Assembly: GCA_043228905.1 (NCBI GenBank)
Contig: JBHGNT010000007.1
Span: 20,336,001-20,400,000, forward strand
Source: Azolla caroliniana
Lineage: Eukaryota > Plantae > Polypodiophyta
Direction: 5' to 3'
Length of the DNA: 64,000 nt
This document shows positions 13,131 through 60,761 of the stretch, in pieces. Made by a program: the position numbers and the translations under genes. The notes under the pieces are model-generated. The model was given only the letters and a program-made list of their open reading frames with translations, was not told the DNA's origin and did no database searches. How positions within the stretch are numbered: position 1 is the stretch's first letter; every line of letters begins with the position of its first letter.

Positions 13131-15782
13131 TATTCAGAAGAGTTAGGTCACACCATCAAATTTTAAGTGACAATCCAAAAAGGGGTCATTTGAAAAGAAA
13201 TTGGAAGTAAAAGACCATGAGAAGGAGGAAAGGGAAGGAGATGGAGAAAAGCAGATCCAATACAAATTATTCAAGTTGGCCTAATAATAATAATCAAGGG
13301 AATGGGATTATTCAAGTCGGCCTCAGTTTGCCATATAACATTCCTTATTTGTATGTTGTGTATACTATAGGAATTAAAACCCTTACGCACGCCTTGTTAT
13401 CATGATAGTCAACTATTACTAGTTGAGCTATATTTTTTTGTTAGATTTACACCAACATTCAACTTGCCCTTGTTACTTCTCTAGCCATGTTTTTAATCTA
13501 TCATAAACTTGAAATTAGATACTTTCATACTTTGTACATGCCACATCACAACACCATAAGCTTCGAGTAATGGCTTCACTTGGCATCCTCAAAACGCATA
13601 AATACTACCTTGTTGGCATGACTCCCACCATCTGTCAATTTATTTTTTTGCTCTTAGCTTCCTCCCACAAACTCCAATTGACAATGTGAAAATTTCATTA
13701 AGATTCCTGTTACGGGCATGACCATATAATATCCCGTGGTGAGAATTGTCGTAGTATTCTATACACGTGGATAAGTGTGAGGGTTAAACAAAGAGTCTAA
13801 AGAAGGGGAGGATTACTTTTAATCCTCGGGATTGAGACAACCCATGAGGCCAAGTGTGAACATGGCTGGGGGCCTTGAGAATTACTATAAATAAGAGGCC
13901 TAGCTACCCTCATTTGGGGCATGCATTGACTACGTCGAGACTCTGTCCGTGAGTGGAACGACTCTTGTAGCAAGCGCGCTATCGTCCAGGTACGACTCGA
14001 CGCCAAGGCGGTGGTATGGGACGCCGATCGAGGCTCGAGTCCGTCTCGATCCCTTCGCTCGGGGCTGGTCGGGTGGATCGGCACCCTTCTTTCTCTCTTT
14101 TCTCTCTATTCTTTCTAGATCTATCATTGATATATCCTTATTTTATGCTTACTTTAGTACCTAATCTCTAATATTTGGTATCGGAGCCTATGTACTAACG
14201 TTTCTTTTGGTTTTCTTTTTGTCTTCGCGAGGGATGGCGATTGATCGTTGTGCGGTCGCCTTCATGCAGACAAGGATTAGCGAAAGAACTTCGGTAAATT
14301 TTCCTTAATTTTTTATCTAATTTTTCTTCTCCCTTCTATACATGTGTATACTTAATATGTAGTTTTTTTTTCATATATTCAATGATGTTGACGTGGTATT
14401 TAATTGGTTATCTTAAACGTTTACATATGTCCACGAGGTCAATACCTCGTTTGACATATAAATCATATGTGATGAGTGTCGTATGCGTACGAGGTTACTA
14501 CCTCAAATTGCGTATTACGTTCACGAACATATGTTACGTTCGCGTACGAGGTCAATACCTCGATTCGTTCGAAATGATATGCGTTGGATTTACTATGCGT
14601 AAGAGGTCAATACCTCAATTGCGAATTACGCTTAACCTTATTTTCGGATGTTTCGTGTGCGTAGAGGTATATGCCTCGATTACGTATCCCGAATACATCA
14701 TTGTTGGCTATATAAAAAAAACGATTCATTTAGTATACGCATATGTGGTCACTTATATACGTCTCTGATCGTATATATGTGATATATTGACATATGTGTA
14801 TATTTTAGATTACGTGATTCATATCAAATGTTTTCCTAATTGGGGAGAGGATTTTGGTGGCCGTCCTCACATTTTTGTGAGAATGGCGTTGTCACCATCC
14901 CTTTTATCAACAATTTTTATTGTTGAAATTCCCGTTGGTCACTTTGATCTTTCGTTACGTAACGAACCTCGTATAGCCAAAATGATGTTGAATACGTCGG
15001 GCTTGATCCACATCAAGTAGGGTCGCTCTAATGACACACGTATCCAACATCTCCCCTCGTTACATGGATACGATGCCACCATGAGCTCGTTCTTACGAGC
15101 GCCATTCGTAATGACGTGACCATGTGATGGGCCACATGAGCCTACGAAGACACAAGGGCTCATTCGGCTTGACCATTAGGTTACACTTTGGCATATGCCA
15201 TTGTACTTACGAGGCTTGAGGGTAGGTAGCGTACAACCATAGTGGGTAATAAATGAGGGAGAAATAAGGCCACTTGACCTATATGTTTCTTTTAAAAAAA
15301 ACATATAGGGGCAAATGCCTCGCATATCTCGAATACGCCTCAAACATTAAACATTCAAGACGCGCAATCTACTTGGTTGGCTCAAGTGTTTAATGTATTT
15401 GTCCTCGAGGTCTCGAGTTCAAATATGACCAACACCATACAACATCGTTGATACATATGACTATAATACATGTTTAGACTTTAGGTCTAAGTGCACTTCG
15501 GGGTCCTCGTAATAGGACTTAAAGAGCCGAAACCACATATGTGGGCACAGAAACATAGTTATTGTTAACATTTTTTTCGTGTATAAACTATTCATGACGC
15601 GAACATACATGGTTGAGCCTCGGGGAGCCGCCATGAAAAAAATCGATATAGAGATCAAGGAAAGGCATTCATTTGTCACCCCCATGGTTTTTAAAACACC
15701 TCTGTGTTACCATAGTAACCTGATCTTGAACCTCATCTCATACGTCTAGAGGGGTATTGACGTGAGATCATGATATCGATTA

Positions 15783-16355
15783 ATGTTTGCCCATGATATG
15801 TTTACACCACGACAAGATGTTATGACTATTTGTCTGACCTTATTTTATTTCTTTGCCAGAAATAATCATTCAATGGCTCAGAATAACGACCCGATGCCCT
15901 CCGCTCAAGCGGAAAGACCTCAAGGAAATCCTCCTGGGACAATGTCCATTGAGGCGTATATTTTACAAGTACAACATTTCCTTAGTTCAACCGCGCAGCA
16001 GTTGACCGAATTTCGGCAATCTCAAAGTGCTCTCGAGGCACGAGTCATTAGTCTCCAAAATGAGATTAATAGACCTGATGAGCGTCAGGGTGAACCATCA
16101 TTTGTCGTAAAGCCATTTACGGGAGATAAAAAGGAAAGAACCGAAGAAGCAATCTGCACGTGGCTGGGCCGATGGGAGTCTCATTTTGAGCTCTATCCCA
16201 CGCCAGATAGTACGAAGATTGCATATGTCGGCCGAGAACTAGGGGGTAAGGCCGCCGCTTGGTGGCGTGGGCTCCGAACTTTGGGGAGATTGCCCGAGAC
16301 CTGGACAGACTTTGTCACAGTTTTCAAGGGTCAATTTCTACAACCTCCCTCTTGA
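15783..16355 (+). CDS. gag: gag N-terminal part (capsid), separated from the rest of gag-pol by one in-frame TGA
   Basis: LGGKAAAWW...TWTDFVTVFKGQF retrotransposon gag motif. The frame continues without shift into the ORF at 16377. Confidence 0.85.
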   Translation: MFAHDMFTPRQDVMTICLTLFYFFARNNHSMAQNNDPMPSAQAERPQGNPPGTMSIEAYILQVQHFLSSTAQQLTEFRQSQSALEARVISLQNEINRPDERQGEPSFVVKPFTGDKKERTEEAICTWLGRWESHFELYPTPDSTKIAYVGRELGGKAAAWWRGLRTLGRLPETWTDFVTVFKGQFLQPPS

Positions 16356-16376
16356 ACCGAGGCAGCACAAGCTTTA

Positions 16377-19300
16377 ATGAACCTCTCTAGCAGGAAGTTT
16401 TCCTCGCTAGAAGATTATGTCCACCATGCTAGAACCCAAATCCAAAAATCGGGTCTAGAAGGGGACAATTGGTTAATAGCTTGTTTTGTCAATGGCATCC
16501 CCAATTCGGACTATCACTGGATAGTGCACGATAAGGATCCAAAATCCTTCGAAGAGGCCGTTGAGATAGTTCTTCGCTATCAACGCACTTCGAAGAAGGA
16601 CCATAACAAACCCAACGAAGCGCCCGGGACTAAGCAGTCGCAATTCGTTGGGAAACGCAAGACACCCAACGAATTCATGGATCGCGATTATAAGCGACAA
16701 CATCCTTTTTGCGTATTCTGCAAAAAGAAGGGTCATACAAAAGAGCAATGTCGTAAGCTCCAACGAAAAGAGCATGACGCCAAACCTAAAGCTACAGACC
16801 ATAAAGGTCAGATTCCTAATGTCCTTCAGGTCTATACACATCATTTGAGTAATTGTCAATGTTCTTTCCCTCATTATGTATTGGATCCCAATGATTTACT
16901 ACATGCAAACGGGTATATCAATGGATCTCCCGTACAATTTTTATTTGATTCGGGAAGCTCACACAATTTTGTGAATGATCGTTTGGTACAGATATGGGGA
17001 ATTCAACCCACCGTAAGTGATCACACCTACACGGTGCACTTGGCTGATGGAAGAGTACAACACATCAACGGGGCGATTCATTCTTTAGGAATTTCTATTG
17101 ATACCTATATAGAGGAAGTAGACTTCCATGTAATGAATCTTAGTACCACCGATGTAATACTGGGTTATCCCTGGTTTTATAATAAAAGCTCTTCTTTATT
17201 TATTGATTGGGTTCGCCATTCCATTTCTTTTGTACTCAACGATTGTACGCATTTTATTCAATGTGTAACAAAACAATCCCTCTCGATTGTTTCCTCGTGT
17301 CCATCAATATCCGAGTTGTCTTGTTCTACGTTATTTTATTGTGTACTTGATCCGGACATTCACGTTTACAATATCGATAATGTCTCGGGTCAATTAACAT
17401 ATTTTGAACAAAAACAACTTGATGAAATCGTAAACGATTTTCGTGATGTTTTTCCGAGTGAACTACCCGATGGTTTACCTCCTAAACGTAATATAGACCA
17501 TCGTATAGATATTGTACCTGGCATTGCACCCATTAGTATACCTCCGTATCGCCTAAGTCGATCTGAAGAGGATGAGGTAGCTAAGCAACTTAAGGACTAT
17601 TTACGAATGGGTTATATACGTTATAGTAAATCTCCATGGGGTGCACCAGTTCTCTTGGTTAAAAAGAAAGAGGGCACATGGCGTATGTGTATTAATTACC
17701 GACGCTTGAATAAAGTGACGATCAAGAATTCGTACCCATTGCCCCGGGCTGACAATCTAATTGACCGTCTCCAGGGAGCTCGGTATTTTACGAAACTTGA
17801 TCTCCGTACTGGCTACCATCAAATACGAATAAGTGAGGACGATGTTCCTAAAACAGCATTTCGTACGCGCTACGGCCATTATGAGTTTTTGGTTATGCCT
17901 TTTGGTTTGACCAATGCTCCGGCTACATTTCAACAAGAAATGAATGACATTTTCCGAGAACAACTTGGAAAATTTGTCGTTATCTTCTTAGATGATATTT
18001 TAGTTTATAGCCATACATTACAAGAACATGCTAGACATGTCCGCTTTGTTTTACAAATATTGCGTGACAAACAATTTTACGCGAAGATCTCAAAATGTGA
18101 GTTCTTCAAGAAATCAATTACTTATCTTGGACATCTCATAACCAAACGAGGAGTTGAAATTGATCCTTCTCGCATCGAGAAAATCAAGCTTTGGCCCACT
18201 CTTCGGAATATTCGAGAAGTTCGATCATTCCTTGGTTTTGTCGGATTTTTGCGAAAATCTCTTCGTAATTACTCACAATTGACGACGCCGTTTACTGATC
18301 TTCTAAAAGGTCAAACGCGTAAGTCTACAAAACCTATTGTGTGGAATGCTACACTAGACCTCGCCTTTAAGGAACTCAAGGACTTGGTATGCAAGGCTCC
18401 TTCACTTCTTTTACCCGATCCTTCAAAACCTTTTGAGGTTGAAACCGACGCAAGCGATTATGCTATAGGTGCTGTCTTGTATCAAGATGGTAAACCAATA
18501 GCATTCGAGAGTAAGAAACTTGATTCTGCTCAATGTCGGTATACCGTTCAAGAAAAGGAATTATTTGCGGTTATACATGCGCTCAAAACATGGCGCCATT
18601 ATCTTTATGGAAATCGCTTTGTGGTAACTACGGACCACGAGTCCTTGAAATATTTTTGTGACCAACAAGACCTGAAAGGTCGTAAGGCACGATGGGCTGA
18701 TCTCATCCAGGACTTTGATTTTTCCATACGATATCGTAAAGGTTCCATGAATACTGTCGCTGATGCACTAAGTCGCATCCGTGAAGTTAACATGCTTAGC
18801 TTCACTGAAATAACATCAGATCTTTATGATCACCTTCGAGGAAAGTATCCTGATGACAATTATTTTGCAAAATACTGGGCAAGAGTCGAGTCTGGAACAG
18901 ACACCACCACACCCTCGAAGGAATACTTCCACATTGCTAACGGTCTGCTCTACCGTAATGGGAAGCTTTGTGTTCCAGATTTACCTGAGGTCAAAAAGAG
19001 AATTCTTTTTGAATGCCATGATGCACCCTCAGCAGGGCACCCTGGAATACATCGTACACTCGTTCTCATCTCCACTCAATTTTATTGGCCTAAGATGCGT
19101 CCTGACATACATAGCTATGTGACTGAATGTCACCAATGTCAGGTTAACAAAGCCGAGCGACTTAAAGCCGCAGGACTTTTACATCCCTTGGACATTCCCA
19201 ATAATAAGTGGGAAAGTATATCCATGGATTTTATTGTTAGCCTTCCTCGCACCCAAAAAGGTCATGATGCCATATGGGTTGTGGTTGACAGACTAACTAA

Positions 19301-20306
19301 AATGGCCAGATTTATTGCTACTAAAACCACGATAACAGCTCCTGAATTGGCTTACCAATTCGTTGATGAGTTATTTCGTTTTTACGGGTTACCGATGGAT
19401 ATCGTGAGTGACCGAGATCCGAAGTTTACTAGTGACTTCTGGACGCAAGTCTTTAAGAAGTTAGAAACTACGTTGAGCATGAGCTCCACGGATCATCCTC
19501 AATCCGATGGACAGACAGAACGAGTAAATCAAATTATTGAGGACATGCTTCAAGCATACGTTGGTGCAAAACCAACAAAATGGGAACGTTACCTCCCAAT
19601 TTTGGAGTTTGCTTATAACAGCTCCAAGCATACGTCGACGGGATATAGTCCTTTTATGTTGATGTATGGATTTCAGCCACGAGCCCCGATTGATGTTAAT
19701 ATACATCATGATGAGTTGCGAAGTACGCAAAACTTTCTTCGGGATATGCAAGATATGTTGCATATTGCACGGGATAATATAAAAACAGCTCAAGATAGAG
19801 CCCGTTTTTATGCCGATCATCACAGGCAACCTCGTGTATTTAGCCCTGGACAGAAGGTATTTTTACGTGTACCTCACAATTCTAAGACATTGTCTACGGG
19901 TAAGTGCGCTAAGTTAGCCCCACGGTTTTGTGGACCTTTTACAGTCCTCAAACGCATTGGATCATCAGCCTATCGTCTCGCTCTTCCCGATGGTGTTGGA
20001 ATCCATCCAGTCTTTCATGTAAGTCGTCTAAAAGAACTTCTAGGTTCTGGCGACAATACAGTTACAACTGAAACTCTGGTTACTTCTGAAGATTTATCTT
20101 CTAAACCACATGTACCAGAAAGAATTCTCGATGTTAAAACAAAAAAATTACGTGCTAAGGAAATCCGAGAATTTAAAATAAAATGGATGGATAAATCAAT
20201 CAAAGATGCCACATGGGAACGCGAAACGACTCTAACAACTAACTTCCCTAACTTTCCATTGCAAGAGTGCAATGTTTTAAAGAGGGGGAGTATGTTACGG
20301 GCATGA
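16377..20306 (+). CDS. pol: gag C-terminus plus pol polyprotein (CCHC, PR, RT, RNase H, INT, chromodomain)
   Basis: [14 protein letters not shown]; [10 protein letters not shown]; FLDDILVYS; [10 protein letters not shown]; HHCC; MDFIVSLP; GPF; PERILD...KW...ATWE chromodomain. The stop codon lies inside the 3' LTR. Confidence 0.95.
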
Positions 20307-21678
20307 CCATATAATATCCCGTGGTGAGAATTGTCGTAGTATTCTATACACGTGGATAAGTGTGAGGGTTAAACAAAGAGTCTAAAGAAGGGGAGGATTA
20401 CTTTTAATCCTCGGGATTGAGACAACCCATGAGGCCAAGTGTGAACATGGCTGGGGGCCTTGAGAATTACTATAAATAAGAGGCCTAGCTACCCTCATTT
20501 GGGGCATGCATTGACTACGTCGAGACTCTGTCCGTGAGTGGAACGACTCTTGTAGCAAGCGCGCTATCGTCCAGGTACGACTCGACGCCAAGGCGGTGGT
20601 ATGGGACGCCGATCGAGGCTCGAGTCCGTCTCGATCCCTTCGCTCGGGGCTGGTCGGGTGGATCGGCACCCTTCTTTCTCTCTTTTCTCTCTATTCTTTC
20701 TAGATCTATCATTGATATATCCTTATTTTATGCTTACTTTAGTACCTAATCTCTAATAATTCCCATATAATCTCCTACACAATTTGCATGACAAACACTT
20801 GGATGTATGGATTGAAGCATCATCTTTTGAAAATTTACACATTTACACAATGATCAACGTTCAATGATCCAAACTTGATCATGAAGATATGTAAAAAATT
20901 TCATTTGACCATAGATCACGTGATAAAACCTAATGAAAATCATTTTCAAAATTACTCACAATAATTCACAATAGTCTCATAATATGAAGCTTGGAACAAG
21001 ATACAATTGAGGATAAAATCTTCAACCTCGTTACATTGGGTGGCTAGAATAGGATGTGGATGAATAAGATGATGAGAGATTAAGAAGAACCTAGAAGAAA
21101 TCATCAACAAAAAGGTATATCTCAACTTGCAAGTCCTAACTTTGGGAATGGTGAAGTGTAGAGTTTGAAACTTGTTGGGACGTGATTCCTACTTTAGGAA
21201 TGATAAAGTGTAGAGTTTGAAATTTGTTAAGGCTGAGCTATGTGGTAAAAACAGAAAGAGAGACATACTTTAGTGAGTGTGCTCTTGAAACCAATCAAAG
21301 TAGAAGGGAGAAGGAAAGTTCATTGCTATGGATCAACAATTTGAGAGGCAAGGCCAAGCTTCATTAGTGAACAAATTATCATAAGATGATGTCAATGTAT
21401 TCCATGACCATAAACGACATACATCCATGTGCATAAGCATAACATCATTTCAGTGTATGCAATAAGCATGATAAGATGTGTGATAACTGTCACGTATTTC
21501 ATGATCATAACATGATGTGTAATATGTATCCATGTATATAGATAAGCATGTAGCTTAGCATAAAATAACCTTAACCTATAATATAACTAATGTTTTATGC
21601 ACTTTATTCCATCGCACACACCATGTCATCACGATAAGAAAACCTAATTCAACATTCCATTTGGTGATCACGCATTAG

Positions 21679-26783: not shown

Positions 26784-28092
26784 CCCCTGATCGACAATCT
26801 AACCGACGGACACCAGGTTCTTCGTGATTGTCGGAACGTGTAATACGTTCATCAGCTTCCCTTTCTGTCCGACGTGGCTTAGAGGGACTTCTTCGACGTG
26901 CACGATTGGGTGAGGAGTGTCGTCTTCGGTTTCGACTACTCCTGGTTGATCCGGTTTCTCCAGAAAGGAGAACCACTCTTTGTGGCTCGTCATGTGGTTC
27001 GACGCGCCGGAATCAACATACCACACTTCCTCCGTTTTGGAAGTGGTCTTCTTCATTGAGTTTGCCTTGTGATTCATCACCAAGGCTGGCCCCTTACCGG
27101 CCTTTCCGGTTCCGGATCCTCCTGATCCGTTTGCATAGTGCAAGTTTTGCCGGCCATCCTTACCGGTCTTGCCGGATCCGGATTTGTCCGAATCGGCACG
27201 CTTTCTCCAGCACTCGCTTTCCCTATGGCCTTTTTTGCCACAGTACCAACATTCCGTAGCGGATTTGTCTTGCCGGCCTCCGGCACCGCCTTGACTCCCC
27301 CTGCTTGTGGAAGTCCTGGAACTGCTGTCGGCACACTCATAGTGCCTCCGTTCCTGCTCTTGCCGGCCGCCTCCATTGCGTGCCGACCCACCTCTTCCAC
27401 CACGCCCACGGAGCCGATCCGTTCCCGTGTACAACATTCGGCTATCTGGGGATGCACTGGTAGATGCACCGGCGTGGTTCTCCTCTACAAGGAGCATCGA
27501 CTGTAAGTCGAAGAATGAGGGGGTATTCTCCCTTGTACACACCGCAGTCCGGAACGTTCCGAACTTGGACGACAGGCCTCCGAGACATACCTGCTGTCAT
27601 GAGATGGCAAGACTCGAACCCATGACCTTATGGTATATGGGTCGAGTTCTTAACCATCTCACCATCTATTGTAATTCATAGGATATTATTTTCATTTTTG
27701 TTTTATTATAAGAAAGTAATGTATATTCCAGATTTCTCTGGAACATTCTAGAAGCTTCAGGATTATTCCTGAGAACACTATAAAAGAAGGCACTAAGCAT
27801 TATGTTGAACCAAATTGGTTCAACACCAGTCTTAAGCCTCTTAGCCGATTTGTACTTATCTTTCATATAATATAAGAGCTGTTGTCATCATCCTATCTCT
27901 CTCTCTCTCTCTCCTCTTCTCATTTTCTCTCTCTCGGGAATCTTACGCAGTCCCGTCCTCTTAGTACTAATAGTACTACTCTTCTTAGTACTAATTCCAT
28001 CTCTGCTTTAGTACTATTCCTGACAGTTTGAACCAATTTCTCTCTAGCCTACTTGTCACTCTCCCTCATCCTCCTACCCTTTTTCCTATACT

Positions 28093-29250
28093 ATGGCTAC
28101 TGTTAGCGCCCAAGAATACCAATCCGTTTTCTCCGAGCTACAGTGCCTAAAAGAAAAGTTTGTGGCCCTGGAACAAGAAAACCAACGGCTGATAGGGGAT
28201 CTGCAACAAATCGCTCTCGAAAAACAACAAACGCAACAACAACATGGGGAGTTAGCGTTACGGGTACAACAACTCGAAGCAGCGTTGCAACAACAAGGAT
28301 CCAGTCCCCAAGGATTTCATAAAGAGCCCAAGATTGGACTTCCTGTGAAATTTGATGGAACGCGTTCGCAATTCCGGGGATTCCTTAATCAGGTACGCTT
28401 AGTCATCCAGATGCATCCTTCCCGATATCCCACTGATGCATCCCGAGTCGGCCTAATAGGCACGCTACTTAGCGGCTCAGCCTTGGCATGGTTCGCTCCG
28501 CTTCTAGAAAAACAATCCCCCTTGCTTAATAACTTTGAAGATTTTATTGGTGAGTTTAAAGCCTGCTTTGGAGACACCGACAGCATCAGGACGGCGATCA
28601 ACAAGATCCGGCGATTGCGTCAAGGCGATCGTCCAGCCTCTGCCTACGCGGCGGATTTCCGCCTACTTGCTTCAGATATACCCTGGGATGATCAAGCACT
28701 AATGGAGCAGTTTCGCTATGGCTTGCGAAACGATGTCAAAGATCTACTTCTCACTTTCCCCGAGGAACCAAAGTCTCTTACGGAGGCAATCAGTCGAGCA
28801 GTTCGATGTGACAACCGCCTGTTCGAACGGCGTTCAGAACGTCAATTACAGATACCACGCTCTAGACCAGAGCCCACTTACGCCGCAGTCGCGGCTAAAC
28901 CATTTGCACGAGACATACCTCAAGCAAATACTTCGACACCGATGGAGATCGATACCATGCGTCGACGCGGCCCGTTATCGGAAGAAGAAAAGCAACGACG
29001 ACGTGCCAATCGATTATGTCTTTATTGCGGTGGACCAGGACATATCGCCATCAATTGTCCCCATAGGCCAAGAAGACAGGTAAATCAAATCGTCGCCTGT
29101 ACTAAACCCGAGTCAATTCTTCCCATCGGAGTGTCTGATAGTATTAATAGTACTAATAGAGTGTCAGATAGTATTCATAGTACTAATAGCCCAAGTATCT
29201 CAAATAAATTTGAAATCCTTAGTCAATTAGATGAAGAGTTAAACGATTGA
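28093..29250 (+). CDS. gag: gag (coiled coil, PEG10/RTL1-like capsid, CCHC knuckle)
   Basis: EPKIGLPVKFDGTRSQFRGF, LLSGSALAWF, LRQG...YAADF, PMEID, CLYCGGPGHIAINC. Confidence 0.95.
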   Translation: MATVSAQEYQSVFSELQCLKEKFVALEQENQRLIGDLQQIALEKQQTQQQHGELALRVQQLEAALQQQGSSPQGFHKEPKIGLPVKFDGTRSQFRGFLNQVRLVIQMHPSRYPTDASRVGLIGTLLSGSALAWFAPLLEKQSPLLNNFEDFIGEFKACFGDTDSIRTAINKIRRLRQGDRPASAYAADFRLLASDIPWDDQALMEQFRYGLRNDVKDLLLTFPEEPKSLTEAISRAVRCDNRLFERRSERQLQIPRSRPEPTYAAVAAKPFARDIPQANTSTPMEIDTMRRRGPLSEEEKQRRRANRLCLYCGGPGHIAINCPHRPRRQVNQIVACTKPESILPIGVSDSINSTNRVSDSIHSTNSPSISNKFEILSQLDEELND

Positions 29251-32200
29251 GTCCAGCCAAAATAGGAGCCATTTGGTTGGACAGCAGCCCTAGATCTGTA
29301 CAGCCCATTAGTGGTTCCATTCCTTCCAAGCAAATTAGCAATGTGTTCCTAGCCCAAGTCATTGTTAGTACTAAAAGTACTCCCCCAGTACCCGTCCTAG
29401 CACTTTTAGATTCCGGAGCTAATTCCTGTTTCATGGATCGAAATTTTGCCCAAGCTTCTCAGATATCCTTAAGAAAACTTCCTTGTCCCGCATCTGTAGT
29501 GGTCATTGATGGTCGTCCCATTGCTTCCGGGAATATTGTAGAAGAATCAGAACCCATTCAAGTTGTCTTAGGTAGTTTTGTGTGTATAATATCATTTAAT
29601 ATAATTAGTAGTCCAGAGCATCCCATTGTCCTAGGATTACCTTGGCTTGAATTACATAATCCAGCCATAGATTGGAGAACAAGAGAAGTCCGATATCGAC
29701 CACCCCAAGAATCAACTCACCGAGTTTCGACCATTTCACTCCATCAACTACGTGAAGAAGGACCCAAGGAGGCAATGTTCCTATTTGCCATATCAGTACA
29801 TCCTTCCAGCACTATTAAGAAGGACTCCTCAGTACAACTTCCGGCAAAATATCATCCTTATGCCGATGTATTTGACAAGGTAAAAGCCGGTACCCTTCCT
29901 CATCACCGTCCCTATGACTGTCCCATCGATTTACAACCAGGAACCGAGCCACCATGGGGACCAATTTACAACTTGTCACCCACCGAGTTAGAAGTCCTTC
30001 GAGCCTACATAGAGGAGAACTTGGCAAGCGGGTTCATCCGTCATTCGAAATCTCCAGCCGGTGCACCCATCTTCTTTGTCAAGAAGAAAGATGGCTCACT
30101 TCGTCTTGTCGTTGATTACCGCGGATTGAATAAAGTCACCATCCGGAATAGGTATGCACTTCCTCTTATATCAAGTCTTTTAGAGCGAGTTAATGGTGCC
30201 AAGTTTTTTACTAAAATCGATCTACGAGGAGCGTATAATCTCGTGCGGATCCGACCGGGAGATGAGTGGAAGACCGCTTTTCGCACGCGGTATGGGCATT
30301 TCGAGTATACTGTTATGCCGTTTGGCCTAACCAATGCACCCGCAGTCTTCCAACACATGGCAAATGATATATTCAGAGACCTCTTAGATATCTGTTTGAT
30401 CATTTATCTGGATGATCTGTTGATTTATTCGAAGACCCAGGAAGAGCACGATTCTCATGTACTATTAGTACTAAAGCGACTCCGCGAGAATGGTCTTTAT
30501 GCCAAGCTAGAAAAGTGTAGCTTTGACTGCAAGCAAGTGGAATTTCTAGGCTACGTCATCTCCTCAAAGGGCATCGCCATGGATCCAGCTAAAGTCCAAA
30601 CTGTACTAGAGTGGCAAATTCCACGGTCGGTACGAGATGTACAATGTTTTCTAGGTTTTGCTAACTTCTACCGTAAGTTTATACAGGATTACTCGAAGAT
30701 TATCTTACCCCTCACACAGCTTACGAAGAAGGGCCAAGCATTTCTTTGGTCCATTGAAGCAGATATGGCTTTTCGACATCTTAAGAAAGCCTTTACATCA
30801 GCACCGATTCTAGCTCATGTGGATACTAGCAAACCATTCATCATGGAGGCCGATGCTTCAGATTTCGCCCTCGGTAGCATCCTTTCTCAACAAGGAGATA
30901 AAGAAGAGTTGCATCCGGTGGCTTTCCATTCGCGCAAATTCGATGTTGCGGAAATCAACTACGAAATACATGACAAGGAGTTATTAGCCATCGTGGATTC
31001 ATTTGTGCAATGGCGGCATTTCTTAGAGGGCTCTCCACATCAGGTCGTTGTCTTTAGTGATCATAAAAATCTTGCTTATTTCCAGAACGCTCGCGTACTA
31101 AATCGACGGCAAGCTCGGTGGGCGCAATTCCTCACGCGTTTCGACTTCAAAATCACATATCGACCGGGGAAGCAACAAGGAAAAGCAGATGCACTGTCAC
31201 GGCGTTCATATCTTGCACCTCGTCCTGGTGATCCAACATTTGATAATCAAAAGCAAGTAATCTTGGGACCAGCACGATTGCACACGACGCGGATTTTTCA
31301 CACCCCGATGGATTCACGGATTACTGACGACATACGTGCAAACTTGAAGACGGATAGTTTTGCTCAAAAAATCTTGGCGCACATTGATACTTCTCGGGCA
31401 TCCTGTTCTCAGTCTCAACAACCAGGTATTGACTACCGACAATTCGAATATCATGATGGTTTGTTATTCTTTAAAAAGCGCGTATATGTCCCCGATTGCT
31501 CCTGTCGCCTTCACATCATCCAGCATTGTCATGATACCCATACGGCGGGACATTTCGGTAGTACTAAGACGTTGGAGCTAGTGCAACGATCTTTTTGGTG
31601 GCCCCACATGCGTCGTTTTGTCGATGACTACGTTCGGACCTGTGATGCTTGCTGCCGAGCAAAGATGCCACGACACCATCCATATGGCTTGTTGGAACCC
31701 TTACCGATTCCAAGTAAGCCGTGGCAATCTATTTGTCTTGATTTTATCACAGATCTGCCGGTCTCGCAGGGGTTCGATGCTATCTTAACCGTCGTCGATC
31801 GATATACGAAGATGGCACATTTTGTTCCATGTACTAAGGCCATCACTAGCGAGGAAACCGCCGTCCTAGTCATGCGTGAGGTATTTCGGCATCATGGCCT
31901 CCCAGACAGTATCATTAGTGACCGAGGACCACAATTTGTCTCCAAATTTTGGCAGCATCTCTTCAAGATGCTCAAGGTCTCTTGCAACCTCTCCTCCGGC
32001 TACCATCCTCAGACCGATGGGCAGGCAGAACGAACAAACCAAACGTTGGAGCAATATCTCCGGTGTTTCCTGAGTTATCAACAAGACGATTGGGCCGAGA
32101 TTCTCCACTTTGCGGAGTTTGCGTATAATAATGTTGTTCACTCCTCGACTCGAGTCTCCCCATTCTACGCGTATACCGGTTCTCATCCTCGCTGGTCGGT

Positions 32201-32520
32201 GATCGACACCCCGGAGCTACCTACCAATCCTCGTGCCGGGGATCATTTGGAGAGACTACGCAAGATCCAGACAGATCTCTCGACTCATCTTCATCATGCT
32301 CAACAGACACAGAAGATTTACGCGGATCGTCATCGGCTTCCCTCCTCTTTTGCCGTCGGAGATCGAGTATGGCTCTTACGTCGTCACATCAAGACTACTC
32401 GACCATGCGACAAGTTGGATTATCGACGACTCGGTCCTTTCCTTATTACGGGTAAAGTTAATGATGTCACCTTCCGCCTTGATCTCCCTCCGCCGCTTCA
32501 GCTACATCCGGTTTTCCATT
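29238..32520 (+). CDS. pol: pol (PR-RT-RH-INT) in the -1 frame relative to gag, interrupted after HPVFH by another LTR and an assembly gap
   Basis: LLDSGANSCF, YLDD, EADASDFALG, HHCC, DFITDLP, GPF. No ATG; overlaps the end of gag. Confidence 0.93.
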
Positions 32521-32922
32521 GAGATGGCAAGACTCGAACCCATGACCTTATGGTATATGGGTCGAGCTCTTAACCATCTCACCATCTATTGTAATTCATA
32601 GAATATTATTTTCATTTATGTTTTATTATAAGAAAGTAATGTATATTCCAGATTTCTCTGGAACATTCTAGAAGCTTCAGGATTATTCCTGAGAACACTA
32701 TAAAAGAAGGCACTAAGCATTATGTTGAACCAAATTGGTTCAACACCAGTCTTAAGCCTCTTAGTCGATTTGTACTTATCTTTCATATAATATAAGAGCT
32801 GTTGTCATCATCCTATTTCTCTCTCTCTCTCCTCTTCTCACTTCCTCTCTCTCGGGAATCTTACGCAGTCCCGTCCTCTAGTACTAATAGTACTAATAGT
32901 ACTACTCTTCTTAGTACTAATT
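32520..32922 (+). mobile_element. extra LTR of the same Tcn1-like family inside integrase, running into the N gap
   Basis: Near-identical to 27600-27995 but with its own SNPs, an extra AGTACTAAT unit, and no initial TGTCA. Confidence 0.8.
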
Positions 32923-33022
32923 NNNNNNNNNNNNNNNNNNNNNNNNNNNNNNNNNNNNNNNNNNNNNNNNNNNNNNNNNNNNNNNNNNNNNNNNNNNNNN
33001 NNNNNNNNNNNNNNNNNNNNNN
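32923..33022. other. assembly gap (100 N)
   Basis: Run of N. Confidence 1.
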
Positions 33023-33259
33023 ACGCTGGAGTTGGACACCGGCCCGGAGTATGAAGTTGCTGCCATCCTCGATTCCAAACTTCTTCGCAACAAACTTTAC
33101 TATTTGATCGATTGGGTTGGTTATAGTCCGAGCGAACGCACTTGGGAACCTGTCGAGCATGTTGCCAATGCTCAGGATTTGCTTGCTGATTTCCACCGAA
33201 AGTATCCGGACAAACCCGGTCCGCAATCAGCGCCGACTCGTTCCACTCGTCGTCTTTAA
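33023..33259 (+). CDS. integrase C-terminal chromodomain (group I, HP1-like aromatic cage)
   Basis: EYEVAAILDSK...YYLIDWVGYSPSERTWEP. Confidence 0.9.
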   Translation, partial: TLELDTGPEYEVAAILDSKLLRNKLYYLIDWVGYSPSERTWEPVEHVANAQDLLADFHRKYPDKPGPQSAPTRSTRRL

Positions 33260-34284
33260 GGGGGAGATAGTGTCATGAGATGGCAAGACTCGAACCCATG
33301 ACCTTATGGTATATGGGTCGAGTTCTTAACCATCTCACCATCTATTGTAATTCATAGGATATTATTTTCATTTTTGTTTTATTATAAGAAAGTAATGTAT
33401 ATTCCAGATTTCTCTGGAACATTCTAGAAGCTTCAGGATTATTCCTGAGAACACTATAAAAGAAGGCACTAAGCATTATGTTGAACCAAATTGGTTCAAC
33501 ACCAGTCTTAAGCCTCTTAGCCGATTTGTACTTATCTTTCATATAATATAAGAGCTGTTGTCATCATCCTATCTCTCTCTCTCTCTCTCCTTCTCATTTT
33601 CTCTCTCTCGGGAATCTTACGCAGTCCCGTCCTCTTAGTACTAATAGTACTACTCTTCTTAGTACTAATTCCATCTCTGCTTTAGTACTATTCCTGACAC
33701 CTGCACCATCTCGTCTTCCTCTATGGTAACATTGATAGAGGCGAGCGAGTCGCAGATCTCCTTTATCCGGCCCGTGTAGTCTGCCACGGACATGTTCTTC
33801 TGTCGAACATTGCTCAACTCCTGTCTGAGTTGCAGCTTCCGGGCAGTGGTGCTTGCGGCGAAAACCTTTTTCAGGTTCCCCCAAGCATCCTTCGGTGTCT
33901 TAGCATCACGGATGTGGCTGAGCAGCTGATCGCCGACACTGGACGCGAAGCAGTACATCACCCTGCTTGCCGCCTATTCCCATACCGGGAAGACCTTGTG
34001 TGCCGAGTCGGGCGCTGCATCATTCGCTCCTTCGACATAACTCCAGTACCCGTGTCCAAGCAGGTACTGGTGCATCTTGTAAGACCAGGATGCGTAGTTG
34101 CTCCTGTCGAGCTTCTCCACCGGGAGCGACGTAGCCATGCCTCTATCCATGTCTTCTACTGTGTCTGTTTTCGACTTGTTAGGGTTTTCTTCTCAAGAGT
34201 AAATGTTTGCAGCAGAGGTTCTCAACCCTCACGCTTTGATACCATGAAACCGTAAGTGTTTGCGGAAGCATAAAATAGAGAACA

Positions 34285-52185: not shown

Positions 52186-55100
52186 ACGGTTGTCAGTGAT
52201 GTTTGCCGAATTGGCACGTTTCGCACACACATGTAGTTTCCTTTTCGGTAATAGTTGGGAGTCTGATGAAGACTCCTTTTGATTGCATTCCTTTTGAGCT
52301 TTTGGAGGTTGATGTGGCTTATCCTCTTGTGCCACACTCTATGTCAGCCTTGGCTCTCTAGCCCTTGGCATACATTGCCGTTTTCATCTCGTGAGAGTCG
52401 AGGATGAACATCTGACCTTCTCTCCGACTGGGAATGATAAGTTGGTCTTAATTTTTGATGAAGTCTCCTCCATCGTTGAAGTGGACTTGTATGCCTTGTT
52501 TGTCTATCTAGCCAATTGAGACCAAGTTCTTTGTTATTATAGGAACATGTAGAATGTTCTTGATGTAGGTTTGGTTTCCTTCTTCCCCAAATGGGACATT
52601 GCTGACATGTTGAATGTGGTGAATTGTGTCATCCCCAATTTCCACATAGCCGGGTTGTTCATGCTTTCGTAGCTCTTTGAACCAATCCTCGTGGGATGTC
52701 ATTGTCAGGAATAGTACTAAGATAGAGGGAATTAGTACTAGAGATAAGGATTAGTACTAAGAGGGAAGGAGGGTGTAGAACTCTCTCTCTCTCTCTCTCA
52801 TGATGATAACAAATGATATATTATATGAAGAGAATATACAAGAATAGCTAGGAGATTTAAGAATGTCGTTGAACCGAATTGGTTCAAAATAAGGCCTTGT
52901 GCCTCTTTTTATTGCATTGTCACAACTACTCCTGAAGTTTCTAGAATGTTCTAGAGAAATCTGGAATATACATCAATTTTCTATAGTGAAATAATAAATG
53001 AAAGCAATTTTTTTTGTATTACAATGTATAACTTAATGGTAGGGCTTTAAACCATGTGACACAAGGTCAGGGGTTTAAATCCTTATAAAGCCATACCATG
53101 CTATATCATGACACTATCCCCCCTAAGACGACTTGTATAGATTGAGGACCTAGTTTGTCGGGGTATTGTCGATGGAAGTCCTCAAATAAGAGCTTGAGCG
53201 TTTGTTACATTCTCGACTGGTTCCCAAGTATGCTCGCTTGGACTATAGCCTAGCCAATCAACCAAATAGTAGAGCTTGTTGCAAACAATCTTGGAATCGA
53301 GGATGGCAGCAACTTCGTACTCTGGTCCTGCTTCAAGCTCGATTGGGGGTGGAGGTGGTGTAATACGATTCAGAATAGTGTTGTCTTGATGAGGTTTGAG
53401 AAGAGAACTATGAAAAACCGGATGTACCCGTAGTTGCGGAGGTAGCTCGAGACGGAAAGTGACATCATTAATTTTTCCGGTAATACGGAAAGGACCTAAT
53501 CGTCGATAATCCAATTTTTCGCATGGACAAGTAGTCTTGATGTGTCGTTGTAATAGCCATACCCGATCTCCAATGTTAAAACTGGACGGAAGCCGATGAC
53601 GATCCACATAATCCTTTTGTGTTTGTTGAGCTTGATGTAAATGAGTAGATAAGTCTGCTTATATCTTGCATAGCTGCTCCAAATGATCCTCTACACAAGG
53701 ATTTGTGGGTAACTTCGGAGTTTTGAATACACACCGCTGAGGATGATAGCATTTATAAGCATAAAATGGTGTAACCCTAGTCGATGAGTGGATAGAGTTA
53801 TTATATGCAAATTCGGCAAAGTGGAGAATATCCGCGCAATCATCTTGTTGATACCTTAGAAAACATCGAAGATACTGTTCTAGCATTTGATTTGTTCGTT
53901 CTGCTTGTCCGTCTGTTTGAGGGTGATAGCCAGAGGAGAGGTTACAAGTGACCTTCAACATTTTGAAGAGATGCTTCCAGAATTTCAAGACGAATTGAGG
54001 TCCACGGTTGTTGATGATACTATCTTGGAGGCCATGATGCCGAAATACCTCATGCATGACAATTTGGGTGGTTTCTTCACTAGTGATTTCCTTAGTACAA
54101 GACAGGAAATGTGCCATCTTATTATATCCATCTACTACTGTTAAGATCACATCGAATCCCTTTGAAATTGGAAGATCTGAGATGAAATCTAGAGAAATGG
54201 ATTGCCATGGCTTGCTTGGAATTAGTAAAGGTTCCAATAAACCATATGGATGATGTCTTGGCAGCTTTGCTCTGCAACATGTATCACATGTCCAAACATA
54301 GTCTTTGACAAATCGTCGCATATGAGGCCACTAGAATGATCGTTGTACTAAATGCAATGTTTTAGTACTACCAAAATGCCTAGTTGTATATGTGTCATGA
54401 CAATTTTGGACTACTCAAAGGCGACAAGAACCATTAGGAACATACAAGAGTTTCTTAAAGAATAGTAATCCATCATGATATTCAAATTGTTGATAGTTCG
54501 TACCTAGTTGTTGCGATTGTGAACAAGATGCCCGAGAGGGATCAATTTGCGCTAGAATGGCTTGAGCGAAAGCGTCTGTCTTCAAGTCTTCACGTATGGT
54601 ATCGATAATGTGGGAATCCAATGGCGTGTTGAAAACCCACGTTGCTTGCAGTCGTGCCGGTCCTAGGATTACTTGCTTTTGATTATTGAATGCTGGATCA
54701 CCGGGACGAGGTGCTAGATGTGAGCACCGCGATAACGCATATGTCTTCCCTTGCTGCTTCCCAAGACGATATGTAATTTTGAAGTCGAAACAAGTGAGGA
54801 ATTGGGCTCATCGAGCTTGACGTCGATTTAATACACGAACATTCTAGAAGTAGGCAAGATTTTTGTGATCACTGAACACAATGACTTGATGAGAAGATCC
54901 CTCTAAAAAATGCCTCCATTGTGTAAAAGAGTCCACTATTACCAATAGCTCCTTGTTATGTATTTCGTAGTTGATTTCGGCAGCGTCAAACTTGCGTGAG
55001 TGGAAAGCAACAAGATGTAGCTTTTCATCATCGCCGTGTTGTGACAAAATGCTACTGAGGGCGAAATTCGATGCGGCTACATTTTTCCAGTTTTGCATAA

Positions 55101-56581: not shown

Positions 56582-57508
56582 TGTCGCAAAAATATGACAG
56601 AGACACATGAACTTGAGGTAGGACCCCGGGGCCTTCGACTAGAGGGTACCAAATTCGTGTGGTTATACTTTAAGAATTAACAGAAATGAGAAAGTTTGAT
56701 AAATTTCTTTGGCAAAGAAAAAGAAAAATTACAATCTAACCCAAGATTGGGATCACAGAAATTTAGGTTTAAAGAGATTAATAGATAAGAAAAATTAGGG
56801 TTTTTGGGAGATATGGCTTCCGTAAGTTAAAATAGGGTTCATGCGAGTGATAGCTCCAATCCCTTAAGGAAACAAATTACCCCCCCTATTACATTGTGTT
56901 TTCCACCCTTACATAGTGATAGGAGACTTAGCACATAACAATCCATGCTTTTTCTAATATAGACTTCATGCTTTTTCTTCTAATAATAATGTTCATGCAT
57001 GACCTTACTTTAGTTGCATCCATCCGTATAGTTTGACCTGTGCATGATTTGTACAATCGTCTTGCCCGATCCGCGCGTCCCGACTGTTCCGTCCAATCCG
57101 ACCCAGACGTTCCGAACTGTTCCAAAATCATTTCGAGCAATTCATCTACATCCATCCATCTAAACAATTCGACCGCATCCATCTATCCAAACAGTTTGGC
57201 CAAATCACCCTAACCATCGTGTGCTCCAAACACACACATGTAAAGCAAAAAGTTATGGGTCTGCTTATATACTGTTGGATCCGATGTTGTCCTATCTATG
57301 TGGGATATCTCACAGTTCTGTTTTCCTCATCTTCTCAAACTTCATACTCACATAACGTGATACTTAGTTGTCCGTTTCATATGTAGTAAAATGCATTCAG
57401 AAGCTCTTGAAGACATCCATCTTTTTATACCAAGCTATTAAGCTAATCTAAAATAATTATTTTATTATTTTATTTTATTTTATATATTGTGTGAAGAATC
57501 ACATGACA
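56582..57508. mobile_element. solo LTR (927 bp, TGTC...GACA, 4-bp TSD ATGT) inserted in gag of element F
   Basis: Excision restores MEIDTTHRHGPLSEEEK. Confidence 0.8.
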
Positions 57509-57804
57509 ATGTGTGGTGTCGATTTCCATCAATGTTAGAGTATTTGCCAGAGATGCATTGTATAACTCCCTTCCAAATGGTTTTAATGCGATCGAGGCGT
57601 ATGTGGGCTACGACCTAGTCCTTGGCATTTGTAAGTGGCATTCCGAACGTCATTCGAAAAGCTAGTTATCACATCGTATTGCTCGACTGATGGCCTTTGT
57701 GAGTAATTTTGGTTCTTCAGTGAAAGTCAGGAGTAAGTCTTTGACATCATTTCGTAGGTCGTATTGAAATTTCTCCATTAATGCTTGATCATCCTAGGGG
57801 ATAT

Positions 57805-58445: not shown

Positions 58446-59211
58446 ATATCGAAGGCGAGTAGACGGAAATCTGGAGCGTAAGCGGAGGCTGGACGATCAC
58501 CTTGACGTAACCGTCAGATTTTGTTGATGGCCATCCTTATGCTATCAGTATCTCCAAAACAGGCTTTAAACTTGCTTATAAACTCTTCAAAATTATTTAG
58601 TAATGGAGATTCCTTTTCTAACAGTGGAGCGAACCATGCCAAAGCTGAGCCGCTTAGCAACGTGCCTACTAAACCCACATGTGATGCATCGGTGGGATAT
58701 CGGGAAGGGTGAATTTGAATGACTAATCGTACCTGATTAAAGAATCCTCTAAACTGTGATCATGTTCCATCGAATTTCATAGGAAGGCCGATCATGGGTT
58801 CTTTATGAATCCCTTGGGTACTTGGTCCTTGTTGTTGCAACACTACAATGGTTGCTTCAAGTTGTTGCACGTGTAACGCTAGCTCCCCATGTTGTTGTTG
58901 CATTTGTTGCTTTTCTAAAGAGATTTGTTGAAGATCCCCCAATAGCTGTTGATTTTCTTGTTCCAATGTGAGAAACTTTTCTTTCAAGCATTGCAACTCC
59001 GAGAAAACGGATTGATATTCTTGATCATTAACAGTTTCCATCATATTGGAAAAAGGAGGGATAAGAGGATTAGTATGAAGGAAGGGAGGAGTAAGAAGAT
59101 CGAGAAATTCAGTTCAAGCTGTCAAGAATAGTACTAAGACAAAGAGGGAATTAGTATTAGACATGATGATTACTACTAAGAGGGAAGGAGGGTGTAGAAC
59201 TCTCGAGAGAA

Positions 59212-59272
<61 letters not shown>

Positions 59273-60761
59273 TGATAACAAATGATATATTATATGAAGA
59301 GAATATACAAAATAGCTAGGAGGCTTAAGACTGGCGTTGAACCGAATTGGTTCGAAATAAGGCCATGTGCCTCTTTTTATAGTGCTATCAGGAGTACTCC
59401 TAAAGTTTCTAGAATGTTCCAGAGAAATCTAGAATATACATCAATTTTCTATCGTGAAATATTAAATGAAAACATTATTCTTTGTATTATAATGTATAGC
59501 TTAATGGTAGGGCTTCAACCCATGTGACACAGGGTTCAAATCGTTTTAAAGCCATACCATGCTATATCATGATAGTCATGTGGTTGGGTGCACCCGAGTC
59601 GACAAACCATACATCTTTTGGTTTGGAGGTTGTCATCGAGTTCTCTTTGTGCCTCATCACAAACATTCTGCCATGATTGTCGTAGTTGGATTTGGCGTAG
59701 TTTGTGAGTTGTCAGCTTGTGGAGGCCGACTCACTCTTCTTTTTCTGAAACTTTGCCTCATAGTGACCGAGTTTACCACAGTATCCACACTGGGCGGGAT
59801 TGTTTTGTTGGCTGGGTCCGGCATGGTTGCTCCCCCTTCTTCTGGACGCTCCGCCTCGCGCGTTTGAAACGTCTTGTCGGTAGTGGAAGTTATGTTCTCG
59901 GGGTTGCTCTTGGTTGTGTCAGCCTCTTTTTCCATGACCTTGTCCTCTTCCTCCATCGAAGTGCGAAGAGAGCATTTGTCCTTTTGTGCATTGCTTCTTG
60001 TTCGAACATGATTCTCCTCGACCAGTAGCATTAACTGGAGATCGAAGGAGGGAGGATTTTCCCTCACAATGACTGCCGACCGAATGGCTCCGAACCAAGG
60101 TGCTAAGACTCTAAGGCAAATCTGTACCATTTCATCGTCGTCAATGCTAATATTGATCGACCTGAGGGCATCACATAGTTCCTTGATTTTCAAGGTGTAG
60201 ATGCTGATTGACATGTCCCTATGTTGTATACCGTTCAACTCTTGATGGAGTTGAAGCTTTCTTGTAGTCGTGTTGGCCGCGAAGATCTTCTTGAGGTTCC
60301 CCTATGCCTCCTCCGGCACTTTGGCCTCTCAGATGTAGCTGAACATGGGATCATGGACGCATGATGCAAGGCAGTACAACACACGACTCGATGCTTGCTC
60401 CCAAGCTGGGTAGTCGGCATGTGTTGGGTTGGGTTGATTTTCGTTTGCTCCTTCGACATAACTCCAATAGCCTTGGCCGACAAGGTATTGGTGCATCTTG
60501 TACTCCCAATATGCAAAGTTGTTTCTGTAGCTTCTCGGTAGGAAGAGCATTTCCCATCCGAGTGTTCATGTCGAGCGTCTTCATCTTCTTCTCTTACATA
60601 CGAATTGTGCAGGTTGTTGCTGCACTGATCATCCGGTTCTTTCCGAACTCGGGATTGGTCACAACACACGTAGAGGCGATGGACTTTGATCAAGAAACCA
60701 TGCGCTCTGATACCATGTAAAGAATCGGAGATGATTTTGTGCAATGGAAGAACTATGTGTG

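What the first reader, a model, noticed from the sequence alone, without database searches (positions are those of the whole stretch)
27779..28039. Tf1-type self-priming instead of a tRNA primer, supported by covariation
Seen: no tRNA PBS follows the 5' LTR. Instead TTGAACCAATTT (28028-28039) is the exact complement of AAATTGGTTCAA (27812-27823), which starts 33 nt after the first T of the TATAAAAG at 27779, i.e. near the expected transcript 5' end. In element F both partners change together (AATTCGGTTCAA at 59348-59337 and TTGAACTGAATT at 59117-59106, one G-U pair) at the same TATA distance. Known: fission-yeast Tf1 primes reverse transcription with the first 11 nt of its own RNA, and related fungal/fish elements are proposed to do the same. 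Inference: this plant family self-primes.
Basis: partly seen in the sequence, partly recalled or inferred. Interest (0 to 1): 0.7.

Follow-up and report, generated by a model that had tools for sequence, protein, structure and literature searches.

The report
Miscopied retrotransposons map their own self-primer
This plant jumping gene has no tRNA primer site and likely starts copying itself with the first 12 bases of its own RNA, as already predicted for its clade, and dozens of miscopied genomic copies appear to record where that primer begins and ends.

Summary
Observation confirmed. The element (27595-33699, TSD CCTGC) is a Tf1/sushi-group (Tcn1-type) chromovirus. Self-priming is already predicted for plant Tcn1 (Neumann 2019: 83% of 1500 elements), so the mechanism is not new; the genomic evidence is.

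(1) Primer and PBS pair 12/12 in 64 of 88 5' LTRs, with two compensated changes (few independent events). F's G-U is probably CpG decay.
(2) The 1-4 bases after the PBS are an error hot spot (33 of 58 nearest-neighbour pairs differ; background median 2). A tRNA-primed family in the window has none there and varies at its probable TSS instead. This places the primer's 5' end at 27812.
(3) 35 distinct insertions read U3-primer-AC-reverse U5/R; 12 close with exact 5-bp TSDs. In 11 of 29 the reversed R stops at +11 to +19 and never at +1 to +10, as expected if the first 12 nt were cut off.

TSS and cleavage are inferred; no RNA reads were available. The scan noted self-priming candidates in other genomes, one with miscopied copies (e1-9817940).

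The parts
27590..27594 (+). left target-site duplication CCTGC (element sits in the gag of a copia element)
27595..28025 (+). 5' LTR (TG...CA, 431 nt); 429 of 429 aligned bases identical to the 3' LTR
27779..27786 (+). TATA box TATAAAAG
27803..27825 (+). U3/R palindrome (10-bp stem, AAT loop, -12.4 kcal/mol); its 3' arm is the primer
27812..27823 (+). predicted 12-nt self-primer = predicted first 12 nt of the RNA; CCAAATT fits the recalled initiator consensus YYANWYY with A27812 as +1; predicted cut between 27823 and 27824
28026..28027 (+). 2-nt GT spacer between LTR end and PBS
28028..28039 (+). primer-binding site, exact complement of 27812-27823
28040..28043 (+). copy-to-copy error hot spot directly 3' of the PBS (inferred end of plus-strand strong-stop DNA)
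28048..29250 (+). gag ORF (ATG at 28093; Retrotrans_gag, Ty3_capsid, zf-CCHC), overlapping pol in another frame
29235..32522 (+). pol ORF: protease, RT, RNase H, integrase, SH3_Tf2-1; interrupted at 32520
32520..33022 (+). extra LTR fragment (32520-32922) and 100-N gap inside the integrase tail; probably an assembly artefact at the gap
33023..33259 (+). chromodomain with Y, W and Y at the aromatic-cage positions (group I type, read by eye)
33258..33270 (+). polypurine tract
33271..33699 (+). 3' LTR (429 nt), followed by TSD CCTGC at 33700-33704
59120..59574 (-). element F 5' LTR (element spans 52703-59574, TSD ATGAC; LTRs 351 identities, 52 mismatches)
59337..59348 (-). element F predicted self-primer AATTCGGTTCAA
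59106..59117 (-). element F PBS TTGAACTGAATT (one probable CpG-decay change)
52703..53113 (-). element F 3' LTR
13708..20758 (+). control only: chromovirus with a TGG-type (tRNA-Met-like) PBS at 14176 and a variable patch at about 13915-13920, 29-34 nt after its TATA

Best explanation
This is a Tf1/sushi-group (Tcn1-type) plant LTR retrotransposon whose PBS pairs exactly with 12 bases at the start of its own R region, and it likely primes reverse transcription with those first 12 nt of its RNA after they are cut off, with no tRNA. Steps: (1) transcription starts at A27812 (inferred from TATA distance, initiator match and the hot spot). (2) nt 1-12 pair with the PBS (sequence shown, folding predicted). 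(3) The RNA is cut after nt 12 (inferred from where miscopied R copies stop; RNase H by analogy with Tf1). (4) RT extends the primer across AC into U5 and R. (5) The plus strand later copies the primer to its 5' end and adds untemplated bases, giving the hot spot after the PBS (hot spot shown, cause inferred). (6) The copied PBS is complementary not only to the minus-strand end but also to the R start on plus-strand strong-stop DNA, so in about 2% of insertions it jumps there and copies U3 backwards. This makes an integrase-competent U3 end on an inverted, defective unit (units and TSDs shown, route inferred).
For: 12/12 pairing in 64 of 88 distinct 5' LTRs. Compensated changes at position 3 (A-T 74, T-A 9, mixed 4) and position 5 (T-A 43, C-G 36, mixed 7). 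Pairing stops at 12 bp on both sides. Primer-PBS helix probability above 0.5 in 126 of 129 RNAs started at +1, median 0.92; z = -4.0 for this copy. Hot spot: 25 different spacers among 74 copies; 33 of 58 nearest-neighbour pairs differ there, against a median of 2 and a maximum of 19 in 677 other 6-nt windows. Control family: 30 of 30 copies identical after the TGG PBS, but at least five forms at TATA+29 to +34; the self-primed family's +1 region is nearly invariant (2 of 70 with private changes). Inverted units: 39 pattern matches, 0 for the reversed control; 35 distinct events; exact TSD in 12, one mismatch in 5; 0 of 35 are simple inversions. R copy ends at +11 to +19 in 11 of 29 and at +1 to +10 in 0 of 29 (p 2.5e-8 against uniform). 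L180 carries the same +13 jump junction twice in opposite orientation. The same U3-primer-to-reverse-U5 junction appears in one contig of public run X3. RT-RH falls with fungal and frog/fish elements at 100/100, apart from the tRNA-primed neighbour and seed-plant, Chara and Closterium rows. Tf1 precedent for the 11-nt primer, RNase H cut, single-stranded PBS copy and untemplated additions: PMC7175516 and PMC11042837 (passages).
Against: No RNA 5' ends or cDNA were seen, so TSS and cut site are inferred. The primer variants follow clades on a gag tree, so covariation rests on about 2-3 independent changes and the Fisher p-values are inflated. The copies were picked by searches that partly fixed the PBS. 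24 of 88 copies are not perfectly paired, including 7 with primer C5 opposite PBS A. The Tf1 three-duplex 'pretzel' is only partly predicted: one flanking duplex in D, none stable in F. In strong-palindrome subfamilies the +13 stop could also be an RT stall at the U3/R hairpin. 18 of 35 inverted units could not be closed with a TSD in the 10 kb fetched. The tRNA set tested was incomplete (40 distinct genes, 12 anticodons). 68 metagenome relatives gave no new primer type.
Confidence: 0.88

Rival explanations
1. Self-primed, but the boundary near +13 in the miscopied units marks an RT stall at the U3/R hairpin on a plus-strand DNA template, not the cut site of the RNA.
For: The hairpin arm reaches +14 and is -12.4 kcal/mol in this subfamily. 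5 of 35 units copy on through the primer into U3, so plus-strand DNA or a correct first jump can serve as template.
Against: L180 and L181 (ends read as +13 and +12, +15) carry the TTTCGAACC arm, whose hairpin is only 5 bp and -6.1 kcal/mol. In L180 the +13 end has jumped to an internal site and been copied on the minus sense, as a strong-stop DNA would.
Confidence: 0.12
2. A host tRNA fragment primes: the spacer plus the first part of the PBS pairs with the T-loop region (nt 53-61) of tRNA-Asn(GUU), and the LTR complement is incidental.
For: 9-nt exact complement to tRNA-Asn nt 53-61; the tRNA set was incomplete.
Against: Not a 3' end (best 3'-anchored match 2 nt); no TGG. The two covarying positions lie outside the 9-nt match and follow the LTR. 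The hot spot sits 12 nt into the site. Described half-tRNA primers are cut in the anticodon stem (PMC6317226, passage).
Confidence: 0.03
3. The inverted units are chromosomal inversions between the two 12-bp inverted repeats, or assembly errors, and say nothing about priming.
For: 12-bp inverted repeats 200 nt apart exist in every copy; this assembly has gap artefacts.
Against: A simple inversion would give reversed R, then PBS, then the gag leader: 0 of 35. Internal parts are deleted or reversed, yet 12 units are closed by exact TSDs, and L091 has two U3 ends between one TSD. Flanks differ between events. One contig of another public run shows the junction.
Confidence: 0.04
4. The primer comes from the 3' U3-R copy of the RNA or from a read-through transcript, not from the capped 5' end.
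For: The inverted units place U3 directly 5' of the primer.
Against: Adding 30 nt of U3 lowers the primer-PBS helix probability from a median of 0.92 to 0.09. The inverted U3 ends at the LTR's outer edge and does not run on into the PPT. About 98% of PBS copies stop at 12 nt.
Confidence: 0.04

Closest known systems
Plant chromovirus Tcn1 clade (Neumann et al. 2019, PMC6317226: passages and supplement rows; Novikova 2010, PMC2864245, and Novikov 2012, PMC3350952: passages)
   Same: Ty3/gypsy order with group I chromodomain, overlapping gag and pol ORFs, 5-bp TSD, about 5.5-6 kb, no tRNA PBS, LTR-complementary site 0-5 nt after the LTR; RT groups with fungal and vertebrate elements.
   Different: The published plant claim is a blastn prediction of 10 or more complementary bases. 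Novikova 2010 found no evidence for either kind of priming in SM-Tcn1. Covariation, the PBS-end hot spot and inverted-U3 integrants were not in the passages read.
Tf1/Tf2 of Schizosaccharomyces pombe, Tj1, Tosmo1-3, Tcry1, Cryptococcus Tcn1 (PMC7175516, PMC4600332, PMC11042837, bioRxiv 10.1101/2022.12.06.519325: passages)
   Same: Primer from the RNA's own 5' end, cut at its 3' side; plus strand ends in a single-stranded PBS copy; RT adds untemplated bases.
   Different: 12-nt primer against 11 nt in Tf1; three-duplex pretzel not clearly predicted here; U3/R palindrome overlapping the primer. In Tf1 the single-stranded PBS directs integrase-independent insertion at PBS homology, whereas here it appears to re-prime on the element's own R start and the product is integrated with a TSD.
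TAR lineage of Ty1/copia (predicted self-priming in 89% of 203; PMC6317226 supplement row)
   Same: Predicted self-priming in plants.
   Different: Other superfamily; unrelated domain order.

Membership tests
Chromovirus Tcn1 / Tf1-sushi group | RT-RH clusters with fungal and vertebrate Tf1/sushi elements, not with plant chromovirus clades | tested here: met
   100/100 clade with Ustilago, Lyophyllum, Rhizoctonia, frog and fish proteins; 26 of the 120 hits were used; midpoint root; long branches on the other side
Chromovirus Tcn1 / Tf1-sushi group | Placement with named reference Tcn1 elements (Cryptococcus Tcn1, Physcomitrium or Selaginella Tcn1) | not testable with these tools
   no named reference sequence came or 59
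Chromovirus Tcn1 / Tf1-sushi group | Chromodomain with aromatic cage (Y, W, Y) | tested here: met
   (EYEV...IDWVGY, read by eye); Pfam Chromo on F's copy
Chromovirus Tcn1 / Tf1-sushi group | PROT-RT-RH-INT order, overlapping gag and pol ORFs, 5-bp TSD, 5.5-9.4 kb | tested here: met
   6105 nt including about 500 nt of extra LTR fragment and gap
Chromovirus Tcn1 / Tf1-sushi group | Host is a moss or club-moss | not tested
   only land plant is shown (E-class PPR gene)
Tf1-type self-priming | At least 10 nt starting 0-5 nt after the 5' LTR complementary to the LTR; no tRNA PBS | tested here: met
   12 nt starting 2 nt after the LTR; no TGG; tRNA set incomplete
Tf1-type self-priming | The complement is the 5' end of the transcript | tested here: inconclusive
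   indirect support only (TATA+33, hot-spot contrast); no raw RNA reads were offered
Tf1-type self-priming | RNase H cut at the 3' end of the primer | tested here: inconclusive
   miscopied R ends pile up at +11 to +19 and never at +1 to +10; enzyme not testable; hairpin-stall rival open
Tf1-type self-priming | Three-duplex pretzel around the primer-PBS helix | tested here: inconclusive
   central helix in both; one U5 duplex next to the PBS in D, none 3' of the PBS; none stable in F
tRNA-primed chromoviruses (Tekay, Reina, Galadriel, CRM) | TGG-starting PBS complementary to a tRNA 3' end | tested here: not met
   site starts GTTTGAACC; best 3'-anchored match 2 nt

The most novel reading that the evidence does not exclude
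Self-priming carries a built-in, previously undescribed failure mode. The PBS copy at the end of a DNA strand can re-prime on the element's own R start, so about 2% of insertions are integrase-made units with an inverted U3 end, some with two U3 ends. Together with the error hot spot that moves from the TSS to the PBS end, these units let one read the TSS, primer length and cut site of any self-priming retroelement from a genome assembly alone. They also plant inverted promoter-LTR hairpins that could feed antisense or double-stranded RNA against the family.
Probability: 0.55. Interest if true: 0.62.

Novelty: new member of a known kind. Interest (0 to 1): 0.45.

Why it matters
Self-priming is proven only for fission-yeast Tf1 and predicted for about 12% of plant LTR elements from a short complement alone. 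Here three independent genomic footprints agree on a 12-nt primer starting at 27812: compensated pairs, an error hot spot whose place differs from that in a tRNA-primed neighbour, and TSD-bounded miscopied integrants. That turns the prediction into base-exact, testable claims. It also offers a sequence-only test for the many other predicted self-primers (Tcn1, TAR, sushi).

Tried and rejected
1) TSS from RNA: no RNA holder listed; the four runs are contigs and cannot show starts.
2) Idea that the strong U3/R hairpin shields against mis-priming: not supported. Inverted junctions are 26 of 1041 for the CCAATTT PBS and 13 of 683 for the CCGAWTT PBS (24 and 11 after removing duplicates and L076; p = 0.38). 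PBS type is only a rough proxy for hairpin strength.
3) Positive control for a hot spot at the end of a tRNA PBS: none seen in 30 copies; the control family varied at its probable TSS instead.
4) Two last genome searches gave 0 because I mistyped the patterns; both also give 0 on loci known to hold the junction. They are uninformative, and an unbiased count of other primer registers was not obtained.
5) The TSD column had an indexing bug; one search replaces it. R-end estimates differ between by 0-3 nt near the primer and by more deep in U5; both give 11 at +11 to +19.
6) One search used a wrong frame; one search replaces it.
7) Metagenome relatives (68 loci): same three primer types, most contigs lack the LTR; L293 and L294 show primer T5 against PBS G (U-G wobble, possibly collapsed repeats).
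8) No Tf1 or Tcn1 structure among the PDB hits.
9) Simple inversion, tRNA 3' end and half-tRNA priming were considered and rejected as set out under the rivals.
10) Literature searches listed no paper on inverted-U3 integrants or a PBS-end hot spot in self-primers (listings seen, nine papers read as passages). Levin 1995, Lin and Levin 1997, Atwood-Moore 2006 and Esnault and Levin 2015 were not held, and Butler 2001 was not looked up; they may describe such cDNA by-products. Neumann's per-element table was not among the supplement passages found, and bioRxiv supplements were not seen.

Full report
Observation. The coordinates are exact. The element runs 27595-33699 between CCTGC target-site duplications, with LTRs identical over 429 aligned bases, and is inserted in a copia gag. 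After the LTR end (TGACA, 28025) come GT and the 12-mer that is complementary to 27812-27823, 33 nt after the TATA. None of 5000 shuffles reached 12 nt. The primer is also the 3' arm of a 10-bp palindrome at 27803-27825.

Identity. Pfam gives gag, protease, RT, RNase H, integrase and SH3_Tf2-1, and the chromodomain has the Y, W, Y cage residues. In a tree of 28 RT-RH pieces (26 of 120 hits, plus two window elements) it falls at 100/100 with basidiomycete, frog and fish proteins. The window's TGG-PBS chromovirus and the Chara, Closterium and seed-plant rows fall outside. This matches the Tcn1 clade as tabulated by Neumann et al. 2019: 5-bp TSD, overlapping gag and pol, chromodomain, self-priming predicted in 83% of 1500. 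No named Tcn1 reference could be placed in the tree. The host is a land plant; I did not determine the group.

Covariation. The genome (523 Mb) holds at least 1041 + 683 exact LTR-end/PBS motifs. Among 88 distinct 5' LTRs called by a downstream gag motif, 64 pair 12/12. Position 3 gives A-T 74, T-A 9, mixed 4; position 5 gives T-A 43, C-G 36, mixed 7. On a gag tree of 87 copies these types mostly follow clades, so they amount to about 2-3 independent compensated changes. Part of the sample was picked with the first half of the PBS fixed. If the plus strand copies the primer, such covariation is also the mechanical result of replication, not only of selection (inference). F's G-U pair is most likely CpG decay, since relatives L032 and L130 pair perfectly. 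The helix has probability above 0.5 in 126 of 129 RNAs started at +1, but in only 40 of 129 when 30 nt of U3 are added. The full Tf1 pretzel is not clearly predicted (definition from the bioRxiv passage).

Footprint of the primer's 5' end. The bases right after the PBS vary from copy to copy: 25 forms among 74 copies. 33 of 58 nearest-neighbour pairs differ there, although these pairs differ at a median of 7 of about 700 other columns; 677 control windows give a median of 2 and a maximum of 19. The PBS and the right anchor were fixed by the search, so zeros inside them carry no weight. The first base is T in 58, C in 8 and G in 8 of 74. Tf1 RT is reported to add untemplated bases to most cDNA 3' ends, and about half of Tf1 cDNAs keep a single-stranded PBS copy (PMC11042837, passage; PMC3185545, passage). 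The window's TGG-PBS family is the contrast: 30 of 30 top hits are identical after the PBS, but show at least five forms 29-34 nt after the TATA. The self-primed family is nearly invariant at its +1 (2 of 70 with private changes). My reading is that errors fall where RT runs off the capped 5' end: inside the LTR in a tRNA-primed element, and at the PBS end in a self-primed one. This puts +1 at 27812. It is an inference from one control family.

Footprint of the primer's 3' end. One hit of the first search had the PBS followed by reversed U3. A pattern for this junction found 39 places and 0 for the reversed control. One (L076) is a normal element with 9 nt of reversed U3 after the PBS, and three are duplicates (L184 and L185 of L179; L178 of L104), leaving 35 events, about 2% of PBS motifs. 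Read from the host side they are: TSD, U3, primer, AC, reversed U5/R, optionally reversed internal sequence, forward internal sequence, PPT, 3' LTR, TSD. Twelve close with an exact 5-bp TSD (L091, 093, 098, 100, 105, 106, 108, 110, 171, 179, 180, 183). Five close with one mismatch, one of them only past a tandem neighbour, and 18 could not be closed in the 10 kb fetched. None is a simple inversion. So at least these twelve were made before integration.

Where the reversed R stops. Five units copy on through the primer into U3, and one could not be measured. Of the other 29, eleven stop at +11 to +19 and none at +1 to +10 (p 2.5e-8 against a uniform spread). A template that still had its first 12 nt would give stops near +1, so the pile-up fits a cut after nt 12, like the cut after nt 11 in Tf1 (PMC7175516, passage). 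A stall at the U3/R hairpin remains a rival, weaker for the weak-hairpin subfamilies.

How the units likely arise. L091 is U3-R-U5-PBS-reversed U3 between one TSD. This is what two plus-strand strong-stop DNAs would give if each PBS end paired with the other's R start. L180 carries the same +13 jump junction twice in opposite orientation: a minus strand that jumped wrongly, folded back, copied itself through its own primer and then jumped to the R start. A mirror route, in which a paused U3-primer plus strand primes on a PBS, is not excluded for the other units. One contig of public run X3 (depth 3.5) shows the same junction at 27823, and run X2 shows indels and joints at 28039-28045; this argues against an artefact of this assembly. 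The idea that the palindrome shields against these errors was not supported (p = 0.38).

tRNA rival. No 3'-end match was found among 40 distinct tRNA genes of 12 anticodons. The best match anywhere is 9 nt to tRNA-Asn nt 53-61, outside the covarying positions. The set is incomplete, but a mature tRNA primer needs TGG, which is absent.

Novelty and verdict. The mechanism is known (Tf1) and already predicted for this clade, so I file it as a new member of a known kind. The inverted-U3 integrants and the shifted hot spot did not appear in nine literature searches, but four primary Tf1 papers were not held. The scan has noted self-priming candidates in other genomes; one unchecked note reports miscopied copies that keep the RNA's front end. 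I saw it after finding the units here. Self-priming 0.88; interest 0.45.

Noticed in passing
window 32520-33022: An LTR fragment and a 100-N gap interrupt the integrase tail of an otherwise very young element; probably a gap-edge assembly artefact.
   Followed up: no
window 13708-20758: Very young chromovirus with identical 466-nt LTRs that end in TA, not CA, TSD ATTCC, a TGG PBS with an A/G polymorphism (21 against 9 of 30) and a leader of about 1.7 kb with repeated GAGGTCAATACCTC-like motifs near 14430-14680.
   Followed up: partly
window 27817-27827: The primer's 3' half and next bases resemble the tRNA T-loop / Pol III B-box consensus (recalled); 9-nt identity with tRNA-Asn nt 53-61. May be chance.
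   Followed up: partly
window 27803-27825: The U3/R palindrome is strong in the youngest subfamily (-12.4 kcal/mol) and weak in others (-6.1). It is predicted to hide the primer in read-through RNAs and in the 3' U3-R copy; its role is unknown.
   Followed up: partly
L076 (G000:C9:8706609): Normal element with 9 nt of reversed U3 after the PBS before the gag leader resumes: an aborted form of the mis-jump. G or GG after the PBS in other copies may be the 1-2 nt version, or transcripts starting at -1 or -2.
   Followed up: partly
L179, L184, L185 (C2 and C12): One inverted-U3 unit nested in a related element occurs three times with the same TSD, so a defective unit was copied as a passenger or by duplication.
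   Followed up: no
L098 (G000:C21:5379000-5388900): One TSD pair encloses an inverted U3 end, an LTR with 1.5 kb of gag, and a full element in tandem.
   Followed up: partly
L034, L082, L109, L147, L171: Primer of one subfamily type with the PBS of another; possibly recombinants between co-packaged RNAs of different subfamilies.
   Followed up: no
window 56578-58446: Element F has about 1.9 kb that does not match element D, probably a nested insertion.
   Followed up: no
window 6516-8138 (-): PPR gene with an E motif, the only host-type long ORF identified in the window.
   Followed up: partly
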